From Escherichia coli O157:H7 (GTDB lineage: Bacteria; Pseudomonadota; Gammaproteobacteria; Enterobacterales; Enterobacteriaceae), in the NCBI RefSeq assembly GCF_013167455.1, contig NZ_CP038328.1: a stretch of 64,000 nucleotides of DNA; one strand, 5' to 3'. Numbering within the stretch: the first letter of the stretch is position 1; each line of letters starts with the position of its first letter. Shown here one piece after another: positions 27,201-30,200 of the stretch. Position numbers: made by a program.

Positions 27201-30200
27201 CGTTTTTAGGCCGCGTCACACCGCTGGAGTTACCGTTGCTCGACAGCCTTGAGCGCGAGTTACGGCGGATGACCGGCGTTACCGTTGACCGCGAAGACTG
27301 GCACTGGGATCAGGTGCCCGATCACCTGAAAATCACCTTCCGCGTGGTGGATGACAAAAACAAGAAGCTAAAAGAAGGGCGCTCGCTACAAGATCTGAAA
27401 GATGCGCTGAAAGGCAAAGTGCAGGAAACGCTATCTGCGGTGGCGGATGACGGTATCGAGCAGAGCGGCTTACATATCTGGAGTTTTGGTCAGTTGCCGG
27501 AAAGCTACGAACAGAAGCGTGGTAACTACAAAGTGAAGGCGTGGCCGGCGCTGGTGGATGAGCGCGACAGTGTGGCGATCAAACTGTTTGATAACCCGCT
27601 GGAGCAAAAACAGGCAATGTGGAACGGTCTTCGCCGTCTACTGCTGCTGAATATTCCCTCACCAATCAAGTATTTACATGAGAAGTTACCAAACAAAGCC
27701 AAGCTGGGGCTGTACTTTAACCCGTATGGCAAAGTGCTGGAGCTGATCGACGACTGTATCTCATGCGGTGTGGATCAACTGATCGACGCCAATGGAGGCC
27801 CGGTCTGGACGGAAGAAGGCTTTGCTGCGCTGCATGAAAAAGTGCGTGCCGAACTGAACGACACGGTGGTGGATATTGCGAAGCAGGTCGAGCAAATCCT
27901 TACGGCAGTGTTCAATATCAACAAACGTCTGAAAGGGCGGGTGGATATGACCATGGCGCTGGGGCTTTCTGACATTAAAGCGCAGATGGGCGGGTTGGTA
28001 TATCGCGGTTTTGTCACTGGTAACGGCTTCAAACGGCTGGGCGACACGCTGCGTTATTTGCAGGCGATTGAAAAACGGCTGGAAAAACTGGCGGTTGATC
28101 CACATCGCGATCGTGCACAGATGCTGAAAGTCGAAAACGTCCAGCAGGCGTGGCAGCAATGGTTCAACAAACTCCCGCCTGCACGTCGTGAGGATGAAGA
28201 CGTGAAAGAGATCCGTTGGATGATAGAAGAGCTGCGCGTTAGTTACTTCGCTCAACAACTTGGTACGCCTTATCCGATTTCAGATAAGCGTATTTTGCAG
28301 GCGATGGAGCAGATTAGCGGTTAACCCTGCTATTTGCCTGATAAATCTAAAACCCGGTAAGCATTTAGCGCCGGGTTTTTTCTTTATGAATTCTGAAATA
28401 TAGCAAGGGCGGTACTATTTTACATAAGTTTCATTCATACTTCGCCTTGGGCGAACAGGACGTATTGCAATGAGTAGACATGATATTTTACTGAGGTCGC
28501 AATTTGAACGGATAATAGAGGGTGATCGCGTTGGTCAGGCTTTAATATCTTTCTATGAAAAACTTCCAGAGGAAAATTACCGACGCGCGCTGTATATTTT
28601 ATCAATAATTTATCCGATTAAACTTAACGTCGGTGACGACGAATTTAAGTTTATTTTTTACATCATGTCACAGAAAAAATTTCTACGCCAACAGACCATT
28701 AGCGATTTTGTACGCTCAATAAATGTTATTGAATTTACTGAAACTCAAAAAAGTGTTTTGCGTGAACTTATTAAAAAGAATAATGATATCATAATTACGC
28801 AATGCACATTTGAGCTAGATTGTTTGTTAACGAGAGTATCTGCGTCATCGAACCAGTTTAGAAACTCTAATGGTTACTTACCTGAGAATAGTTAATAGCA
28901 TGAAAAATGTAGAAAATATTATCTGGCATGATGGTGTTTTAGTAGAAACCAGAATGGAATGTCACCACACCGAGTATAATTTTATATTGACGGCGGAGCT
29001 TTATGTTGATGAATTTACAGCCGGAAGGGAACGAAAAAGGTTCGAGTTTACAGGAGTGGAACATTTATCGCAGGTTATGGATATTGCTGAACTTATAGAT
29101 AACCAAAATGCAGGTAATATTAAAGATGCGACAATTGTTTATAAGGCAAAGAAGTATAAAATTTCACTTCATTTGTTTGGTGGTTTTTTAAGTTTTACAT
29201 TTAAAACCATGCGAGTTATTGACAATGAATGTGCGTAATGTCAAATTCGACAACTTGTCTTTTTATGAAGAAAAAATCCGCTGGCGAATGCGTCGGCAAA
29301 TCTCGAATGCAGAGGCAATATTTTACGAGAATCAGGAAGAACACATTCGGCGCTTTTTAGGCAGATATACCTGTCGCAAACCGGTTCTTGTTTATTGGGA
29401 AAGTGAACAAAGATGGACATCTGTAAACGGTCTGGAAGTGATGAGTATGTTTGGTGAACATTGTCATCACATCTACCTTGATGATATCAAGAAAAAAATA
29501 CAAACTGAATTACCTGAAAATAAAACTTTAGATTTCAAACGTCAATTGCAATTTATAATATTAGGGGATGATAAGATTAGAATATGGGTGCCTGAGGGGA
29601 AATTGTATTTCGCATTAATGAATGTATTGCAGATGTTTCCCATGAAAAATGGTTAATAACTGGACAAGATAATTTTAAAATTCAGCAACGGTTATCGATT
29701 ATACATGGTACTTAAACAGACTCACACCATTTTTGTAGAAGGTTAAATTGAGTACAGTCTCATATATTAAGGGTGTTAACATGGATGAACGTTTTATAAA
29801 TATCACGCCGACTTCGTTGTCTTTTAAACACGCCGATCTGTCAGGTTTAAGCTATAAGAATGCCAGGCTTGAACTGGCCCTGATATGCCCGGCGATCAAG
29901 TCAGAAGTTAAGATATCATTTGACTGGATACACTCATTTCGTGTTACTGACGAAGGTGATTTGTTAGGTATGTCAGGAAAGCAGGGAATTAACCAAACGG
30001 GGATCTATAGAGTAGCCAATTCCACTTATCTTACATGGTTTACTATGCAAAGTTGTGAAATTCATAAAAATAAAATGATCGAACATTATGTTATTGCCAC
30101 GTCAAATGATGTTATTGATGTTTTATCAACAGTTTCTCCGCAAATAGTGTATGACTAAAACCAGTGTCTGGTTCGCGATGGCGAGATAGAAAAAGCATTA

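What the first reader, a model, noticed from the sequence alone, without database searches (positions are those of the whole stretch)
28900..30158. Cassette ORF2 and ORF4 (and perhaps ORF3) may be divergent paralogs
By eye, ORF2 and ORF4 share an order of short motifs: a hydrophobic N-terminal strand (IIWHDGVLV / FINITPTSL), an N-x-[IL]-L-x-[AL]-[EL]-L segment (YNFILTAELY / KNARLELALI), and a [KR]-[FI]-[ES]-F-x-[GW]-[VI]-[EH]-[HS]-[LF] segment (RFEFTGVEHL / KISFDWIHSF). Each also ends in an acidic tail (IDNE / IVYD). Tandem diversified paralogs of about 110-140 aa are what orphan immunity clusters and some counter-defence gene families look like. The similarity is weak and could be chance.
Basis: inference. 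Interest (0 to 1): 0.5.

Follow-up and report, generated by a model that had tools for sequence, protein, structure and literature searches.

The report
Orphan toxin-immunity gene island after hrpA
A 1.8-kb low-GC insert between the E. coli genes hrpA and ydcF carries four small genes that look like stand-alone "immunity" genes against toxins injected by rival bacteria; two of them (ORF2, ORF4) are predicted to share one fold but are not recent duplicates, which is an ordinary finding with some unannotated families.

Summary
The four ORFs are real. They have purifying dN/dS, are called by PGAP, and occur in 585 of 5,426 complete E. coli genomes.

Pairwise, ORF2, ORF3 and ORF4 are no more alike than shuffled sequences. 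With deep family profiles, ORF2 and ORF4 give a weak collinear HHalign match (P 0.007-0.015; about 1.5% of block-shuffles reach it). Their AlphaFold models share the same two best PDB neighbours out of 48,164 chains:

So a shared fold is likely and remote ancestry is plausible. In-place tandem duplication is not supported, because each ORF belongs to its own family with its own toxin partner:
- ORF4 relatives sit 7-8 bp after CdiA genes.
- An ORF2 relative sits 43 bp after a VgrG-Rhs toxin, and ORF2's structural neighbours are named "Immunity protein 50".

ORF3 shows no similarity to either; its fold was not tested. The same site after hrpA holds related immunity arrays in other enterobacteria.

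Verdict: an orphan multi-immunity island, a new member of a known kind, of modest interest.

The parts
28382..30203 (+). Low-GC (34-36%) island inserted between hrpA and ydcF; it replaces 144 bp of the K-12-type intergenic region
   Evidence: Junctions come from alignment with the DH1/K-12 empty site; GC profile; at least 80% of the island is present in 585 of 5,426 complete E. coli genomes
28350..28381 (+). hrpA terminator-like hairpin (ACCCGG...CCGGGT plus a T run) at the left junction; it belongs to the conserved flank, not to the island
   Evidence: Read directly from the sequence; conserved in K-12, L011 and L016; missed by the scan tool because the loop exceeds 8 nt
28470..28895 (+). ORF1, 141 aa, function unknown; conserved upstream partner of ORF2-like genes
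   Evidence: PGAP call. No Pfam, NCBIfam or PADLOC match. A 46%-identical homolog precedes an ORF2-like gene right after hrpA in L016. Deleted in strain ECE204 while ORF2-4 are kept. No profile similarity to ORF2/3/4 or to CdiI_3
28900..29238 (+). ORF2, 112 aa: Imm50-like / PIM7-fold immunity protein with WHDG, DN..AGNI and L.[DG]G motifs
29225..29656 (+). ORF3, 143 aa, overlaps ORF2 by 14 nt; a narrow family, immunity-like by context only
   Evidence: Only 8 clusters found, all Escherichia-type, and one species-representative genome. A 34%-identical domain is fused to a CdiI_3-like N-terminal domain in the syntenic array L011. No Pfam or PDB match. dN/dS 0.24-0.47
29781..30158 (+). ORF4, 125 aa: orphan CdiI-type immunity protein

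Best explanation
The hrpA-ydcF insert is an orphan multi-immunity island. It carries four small cytoplasmic proteins with no toxin gene beside them. They would protect the cell by binding toxin domains delivered by other bacteria through contact-dependent inhibition (CdiA) or type VI secretion (Rhs), and blocking their active sites.

ORF4 is a CdiI-type immunity protein. Its family is cognate to a conserved, unannotated ~85-residue CdiA C-terminal domain. ORF2 belongs to an unannotated family next to Pfam Imm50, with the fold of PIM7, the immunity protein of the PT7 DNase. One family member follows a VgrG-Rhs toxin.

ORF2 and ORF4 most likely share this beta-rich fold: four or five strands, a short helix, then more strands. 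They may descend from one ancient immunity superfamily. They were assembled into the island as separate cassettes and were not duplicated in place. ORF3 and ORF1 are further cassettes of unknown fold.

Shown: gene positions, family distributions, toxin adjacency of homologs, predicted folds, purifying selection. Inferred: toxin binding, protection, and common ancestry of ORF2 and ORF4.
For: Toxin adjacency of homologs:
- ORF4 homologs lie 7-8 bp downstream of CdiA in two sets of contigs whose CdiI differ. Their toxin C-termini are conserved.
- ORF4 homologs also occur in an orphan cdiA-CT/cdiI array in Cedecea.
- An ORF2 homolog lies 43 bp after a VgrG-Rhs gene.

Folds:
- According to the paper, PIM7 occludes the active site of the PT7 DNase.
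- Foldseek neighbours of ORF2 are named Immunity protein 50.

Sequence link between ORF2 and ORF4: HHalign P 0.007-0.015; secondary structure agrees at 66% of aligned positions against a 41% background.

The site:
- Syntenic hrpA-linked arrays in other enterobacteria carry ORF1-, ORF2-, ORF3- and ORF4-like genes together with DUF596, CdiI_3 and ankyrin genes.
- An alternative occupant of the site is an SMI1/KNR4 gene.
- No toxin remnant is present in the window.

Selection: dN/dS is 0.17-0.53 with dS similar to the flanks.
Against: - No Pfam, NCBIfam or PADLOC model matches any of the four proteins. The Imm50 HMM misses ORF2, all 73 family members tested and the family consensus.
- Only one of the ORF2-family contexts sampled shows an adjacent recognisable toxin. 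The others are orphan-like.
- The ORF4 family does not appear among the 50 best Foldseek neighbours of ORF2.
- The C-terminal halves differ: ORF4 has a helix at 82-90 where ORF2 has a strand.
- HHalign probability stays at or below 20%.
- The two models could not be superposed on each other directly.
- No experiment bears on protection.
Confidence: 0.7

Rival explanations
1. [not shown]
Against: The same two PDB chains rank first and second for both models out of 48,164, well separated from the rest. The profile alignment is collinear over 67-95 columns and matches secondary-structure elements one by one. The block-shuffle null reaches its score in 1.5% of trials, and never with 60 or more columns.
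Confidence: 0.25
2. ORF2, ORF3 and ORF4 arose by tandem duplication at this locus and diverged under diversifying selection.
For: They are adjacent, on the same strand and of similar size. ORF2 and ORF4 share a predicted fold. dN/dS is relaxed relative to the flanks.
Against: - Each family is found independently elsewhere with its own toxin partner.
- The ORF2 family has 84 clusters at 50% identity, with predicted-structure neighbours in genera as distant as Paraburkholderia and Xanthomonas.
- In the syntenic array L011 the order is ORF3-like, Ank, ORF2-like, another gene, ORF4-like.
- ORF3 has no similarity to either.
- dN/dS is below 1.
Confidence: 0.03
3. The cassette is an anti-phage defence or counter-defence module, or a toxin-antitoxin set, and not interbacterial immunity.
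For: ORF4-like orphans in Pantoea sit next to Gabija-like and BrxC/TerB genes. ORF4 weakly matches a PHROG of unknown function, E 3.7e-4. An ORF2-family gene lies in a prophage-like context.
Against: There is no PADLOC match. Homologs directly follow CdiA and Rhs genes. The best structural match is a proven immunity protein. ORF1 can be deleted without loss of ORF2-4, which argues against an obligatory toxin-antitoxin pair.
Confidence: 0.05

Closest known systems
PIM7, immunity protein of the LXG-fused DNase toxin PT7 of Bacillus cereus (PDB 8owu chain E; bioRxiv 10.1101/2021.10.19.465003)
   Different: Sequence identity is 11-13%, and profile searches of PDB sequences find no match. It comes from Firmicutes and a T7SS toxin. 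Here no toxin is adjacent, and the related toxins are CdiA and Rhs.
Imm50 (Pfam PF15594 / IPR028957), an immunity family for Tox-HNH-EHHH and Ntox24 toxins (Zhang et al. 2012, PMC3482391; Salmonella SPI-6 Rhs examples, PMC10469887)
   Same: It is described as mostly beta and about 110-130 aa. AFDB proteins named Immunity protein 50 are 27-34% identical to ORF2 with TM 0.83-0.90. It is found after Rhs toxins, as is ORF2-family member P0086.
   Different: The Pfam HMM does not match ORF2, the 73 family members or the family consensus even at E <= 0.1-10. The toxin type next to P0086 was not identified.
CdiI immunity proteins and orphan cdiA-CT/cdiI arrays of Enterobacterales (general knowledge; the Cedecea array is an example)
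   Same: The ORF4 family occupies the CdiI position immediately after cdiA and also occurs in orphan arrays. It is small, cytoplasmic and low in GC.
   Different: In this window there is no cdiA-CT fragment before any of the genes, and the island is not next to a cdiBAI locus. The family is in no curated CdiI model. The cognate toxin domain is uncharacterised.
Heterogeneous polyimmunity loci (Zhang et al. 2012, PMC3482391) and acquired interbacterial defence islands of Bacteroidales (recalled from the literature, not checked here)
   Same: These are arrays of unrelated immunity genes without toxins, variable between strains, at a recurrent chromosomal site.
   Different: The island is small (four genes). 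It has no integrase or recombinase and no repeats marking cassettes. It appears vertically inherited within Escherichia, since its dS is similar to that of the flanks.

Membership tests
CdiI-type immunity (ORF4) | Encoded immediately downstream of cdiA on the same strand | tested here: met
   Met for homologs at 44-47% identity: 7-8 bp after CdiA in L004-L007 and L027-L029. The window copy itself is an orphan, with no cdiA or CT fragment.
CdiI-type immunity (ORF4) | Matches a curated CdiI family model | tested here: not met
   No Pfam, NCBIfam or PADLOC hit. There is one faint YxiG-like hit in 1 of 42 members.
CdiI-type immunity (ORF4) | Binds and neutralises the cognate CdiA-CT | not testable with these tools
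   Needs co-expression and pull-down.
Imm50 (PF15594) (ORF2) | Significant match to the family HMM | tested here: not met
   No hit for ORF2, for 9 + 73 family members, or for the family consensus.
Imm50 (PF15594) (ORF2) | Mostly-beta fold shared with annotated Imm50 proteins | tested here: met
   Foldseek ranks 5, 6 and 47 are named Immunity protein 50; for ranks 5 and 6, TM is 0.83-0.90, identity 27-34% and E 2e-8 to 3e-8.
Imm50 (PF15594) (ORF2) | Neighbour of Tox-HNH-EHHH or Ntox24 toxins | tested here: inconclusive
   P0086 follows a VgrG-Rhs gene. NCBIfam recognises only the Rhs core of its C-terminus, and the toxin domain is untyped.
PIM7-like fold (ORF2 and ORF4) | Structural similarity to 8owu_E well above background | tested here: met
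   [not shown]
PIM7-like fold (ORF2 and ORF4) | Sequence-detectable homology to PIM7 | tested here: not met
   Profile searches of all PDB sequences found no relevant hit at E <= 10.
Paralogy of ORF2 and ORF4 | Significant sequence or profile similarity | tested here: inconclusive
   Pairwise: none. Profile-profile: P 0.007-0.015, probability 3-20%, block-shuffle 1.5%.
Paralogy of ORF2 and ORF4 | Direct superposition of the two structures | not testable with these tools
   Model coordinates are not exposed. The evidence is indirect only: shared top PDB neighbours and matching secondary-structure order.
Paralogy of ORF3 with ORF2/ORF4 | Sequence or profile similarity, or a shared fold | tested here: not met
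   BLASTP E 2.1 or no alignment; HHalign probability below 1%.
Anti-phage defence system | Match to a PADLOC model | tested here: not met
   Only a chance-level JAB hit for ORF3, E 0.023.

The most novel reading that the evidence does not exclude
The 3' flank of hrpA is a conserved, dedicated landing site for immunity genes across Enterobacteriaceae. There, a single ancient PIM7/Imm50-like beta-fold superfamily has radiated into families specific for different delivery systems: the ORF2 family for Rhs/T6SS toxins and the ORF4 family for a new CdiA toxin domain. ORF1 and ORF3 would be further, still unclassified immunity folds. The ORF4 family would then mark a new, uncharacterised ~85-residue CdiA toxin type.
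Probability: 0.4. Interest if true: 0.4.

Novelty: new member of a known kind. Interest (0 to 1): 0.3.

Why it matters
About one in nine complete E. coli genomes, including the strains identical to this window, carry four "hypothetical" genes here that can now be read as probable orphan immunity genes. That gives testable predictions: which CdiA or Rhs toxins these strains should resist.

It also flags two immunity families (ORF2-like, ORF4-like) and one CdiA toxin domain that curated libraries lack. It points to the hrpA 3' flank as a recurrent immunity-gene site in several enterobacteria.

It does not change how polymorphic-toxin immunity is understood. It is an annotation gain, not a new principle.

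Tried and rejected
- Pairwise BLASTP and Smith-Waterman/semi-global shuffles for all ORF pairs gave nothing.
- HHalign with shallow Escherichia-only profiles gave nothing.
- Pfam, NCBIfam, PADLOC and PHROGs scans of all four proteins, of family members, and of concatenated family consensus sequences gave no meaningful family. The exception was DUF7021 + DUF2262 in the extra gene of L014.
- Sequence-profile searches of the PDB for the ORF2, ORF3 and ORF4 families gave no relevant hit.
- tblastn of the CdiA and Rhs toxin C-termini against the whole window found no toxin remnant.
- The cognate CdiA C-terminal domain was searched against the PDB and NCBIfam. Only its N-terminal part matched, a stretch of known tRNase CdiA C-terminal chains that I take to be the entry region; the toxin domain stayed untyped.
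- More ORF3 relatives were sought in species-representative genomes, viral contigs and plasmids. One Escherichia locus was found and nothing else.
- ORF1 was compared with CdiI_3 and with ORF2/3/4 profiles: no relation.
- The promoter/terminator scan was at background level.
- A literature search for an hrpA-ydcF island found no paper.
- I considered ORF1-ORF2 as a toxin-immunity or toxin-antitoxin pair. I rejected this as unsupported: ORF1 is lost in strain ECE204 while ORF2-4 persist, and ORF1 matches no toxin family.

Full report
**Setting**

The window is Escherichia coli chromosome. hrpA ends at 28324 and ydcF starts at 30274, followed by aldA and an intact gap gene. Between hrpA and ydcF lies a stretch of 34-36% GC in a 47-58% GC background.

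Alignment with the K-12-type empty site places the insert at about 28382-30203. It starts directly after the hrpA terminator hairpin and replaces 144 bp. PGAP calls four same-strand genes there, all "hypothetical protein":
- ORF1, 28470-28895
- ORF2, 28900-29238
- ORF3, 29225-29656
- ORF4, 29781-30158

At least 80% of the island is present in 585 of 5,426 complete E. coli genomes, and nearly all the rest have the short empty site. Another 186 genomes carry a different occupant: an SMI1/KNR4 gene plus a small gene on the opposite strand. That variant still holds remnants of the ORF3 C-terminus and of both ends of ORF4.

**Are the ORFs genes?**

Between this window and two diverged Escherichia alleles (L003, L014), the island genes have dS values similar to those of hrpA and ydcF. 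Their dN/dS is 0.17-0.53, against 0.02-0.13 for the flanks. They are therefore coding, under relaxed but purifying selection, and appear to be inherited with the flanks within the genus.

**The observation**

- BLASTP finds nothing.
- Local and semi-global alignment scores of every ORF pair sit within or below the shuffle distribution.
- Profiles built from close Escherichia homologs also gave nothing.

A profile search of 1.84 billion representatives expanded the ORF2 family to 84 clusters with conserved WHDG, DN..AGNI and L.[DG]G motifs. The ORF4 family has 55 clusters across Enterobacterales.

With these deeper profiles, HHalign aligns ORF2 residues about 3-82 with ORF4 residues about 9-80. 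The score is 18.6-19.2 and P is 0.007-0.015. When I shuffled the order of secondary-structure blocks of the ORF4 alignment 200 times, 1.5% of shuffles reached the score, and none did so with 60 or more aligned columns. As a baseline, real but unrelated profiles (ORF1 against the others) give scores of 11-12 and P of 0.12-0.39.

It places the second pair on the same strand with an offset of two residues. It does not support the first pair or the tails.

**Structures**

AlphaFold2 models are confident: ORF2 has pLDDT 93 and ORF4 has pLDDT 86. Both are beta-rich, with four or five N-terminal strands, a short helix, then further strands.

Along the HHalign alignment, 66% of aligned positions share the DSSP state, against a mean of 41% over arbitrary offsets. 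The elements match one by one up to about residue 80. After that, ORF4 has a helix (82-90) where ORF2 has a strand. Supplying these secondary-structure strings raises the HHalign probability to 20%.

- Everything else scores 5.5 or lower.

PIM7 is the immunity protein of PT7, an LXG-fused DNase toxin, and occludes its active site. Foldseek of ORF2 against AFDB50 finds neighbours named "Immunity protein 50" at 27-34% identity. The ORF4 family is not among the 50 rows shown.

I could not superpose the two models on each other, so the shared fold is inferred from shared neighbours and matching element order.

**What the genes are**

*ORF4.* Homologs at 44-47% identity lie 7-8 bp downstream of CdiA genes (Fil_haemagg_2 + PT-VENN). 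This holds in Duffyella gerundensis, both on a conjugative-element-like stretch and in the chromosome, and in a second set of contigs. In both sets the last ~85 residues of CdiA are conserved...TTGRSKLFER.GG.DAANKEF..L.P.EIKDIPGGRVGKL.DGRT..VRERS.DGRPTLEIQSGKNR.KFRYDE. That domain has no Pfam, NCBIfam or PDB relative. In Cedecea neteri the gene sits inside a long orphan cdiA-CT/cdiI array. In Pantoea it is a lone orphan beside Gabija-like or BrxC/TerB genes. This is the pattern expected of a CdiI family that also circulates as an orphan.

*ORF2.* One member lies 43 bp after a 2033-residue VgrG-Rhs protein and is followed by a DUF6714 gene. Other sampled members are orphan-like.

*The hrpA flank in other bacteria.* Two contigs from other enterobacteria again begin at hrpA.
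- L016 (HrpA 94% identical) has an ORF1-like gene (46% identity) followed by an ORF2-like gene (38%) right after hrpA.
- L011 has the hrpA stop and terminator, then this order: DUF596; a CdiI_3-like domain fused to an ORF3-like domain (34% identity); an ankyrin protein; an ORF2-like gene (41%); a 138-residue gene; and an ORF4-like gene (43%, cut by the contig end).
- Escherichia sp. MOD1-EC7003 adds a DUF7021 + DUF2262 gene at the 5' end of the island.

These companions (DUF596, CdiI_3, ankyrin, SMI1/KNR4, DUF2262) match the content of polyimmunity loci as described by Zhang et al. 2012. That DUF596 and DUF2262 belong with such loci is my own recollection. No toxin C-terminal remnant is detectable anywhere in the 64-kb window, and no curated family or defence model matches the four proteins.

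**Interpretation**

The island is best read as an orphan multi-immunity array. ORF2 and ORF4 probably share the PIM7/Imm50-like fold and may be very distant relatives. However, each belongs to its own widespread family tied to a different toxin and delivery system, and their order and neighbours differ in L011. They were therefore brought together as cassettes and not duplicated in place. Convergence on a small beta fold cannot be excluded (about 0.25).

ORF3 has no detectable similarity to either. The only evidence for its immunity role is context and the fusion to a CdiI_3-like domain.

The presumed mechanism is tight binding of the incoming toxin domain with occlusion of its active site, giving resistance to non-kin CDI or T6SS attack. 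It is inferred from the families and from the PIM7 precedent and is not shown here.

**Verdict**

- This is a new member of a known kind, with modest interest for annotation and for predicting which toxins these strains resist.

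Noticed in passing
L016:5550-6345; L011:1-3064; L014:4405-6945; L002:3104-4168: The 3' flank of hrpA carries immunity-type gene arrays in several lineages. L016 (HrpA 94% identical) has ORF1-like + ORF2-like genes. L011 has DUF596, CdiI_3::ORF3-like, Ank, ORF2-like, a 138-aa gene and ORF4-like. Escherichia sp. MOD1-EC7003 adds a DUF7021 + DUF2262 gene. 186 E. coli genomes have an SMI1/KNR4 variant that retains ORF3/ORF4 remnants. This suggests a conserved hotspot.
   Followed up: partly
L006:7740-7994; L027:4740-4993 (last ~85 codons of cdiA): The CdiA proteins that precede ORF4-family immunity genes share a conserved ~85-residue C-terminal domain (…GRSKLFER…DGRPTLEIQSGKNR.KFRYDE). 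It has no Pfam, NCBIfam or PDB match and is probably an undescribed CdiA toxin type.
   Followed up: partly
L011:624-1337: A single 237-codon frame joins a CdiI_3-like N-terminal domain to an ORF3-like C-terminal domain with no stop between them. In E. coli, ORF3 stands alone and its start overlaps the end of ORF2. Either immunity domains fuse here, or the E. coli ORF3 is the remnant of a longer gene.
   Followed up: partly
window 28470-28895 and L003:3144-3248: ORF1 and ORF2 occur as an adjacent pair after hrpA in another genus (L016). Yet ORF1 is reduced to a 35-codon pseudogene in E. coli ECE204 while ORF2-4 stay intact. ORF1 matches no family and its role is unknown.
   Followed up: partly
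L019:6001-9340; L020:6001-12390: Orphan ORF4-like genes in Pantoea lie next to a Gabija-like pair (AAA_15/OLD-TOPRIM + UvrD-like helicase) or next to BrxC/TerB genes. That is, they sit in variable defence-island neighbourhoods.
   Followed up: no
window 28900-30158 vs L003 and L014: Island genes have dN/dS of 0.17-0.53 against 0.02-0.13 for hrpA, ydcF and aldA, with similar dS. Constraint is relaxed, but there is no sign of positive selection at whole-gene level.
   Followed up: yes
window 29781-30158: ORF4 gives a full-length weak match to PHROG 15075 (unknown function, E 3.7e-4). One family member is named 'exonuclease SbcCD subunit D C-terminal domain-containing protein' by its source, which looks like a mis-annotation.
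   Followed up: no
window 32752-33753 (- strand): The gap gene next to aldA (gapC in K-12) is an intact 333-codon frame here. As far as I recall, K-12 carries it as a pseudogene.
   Followed up: no
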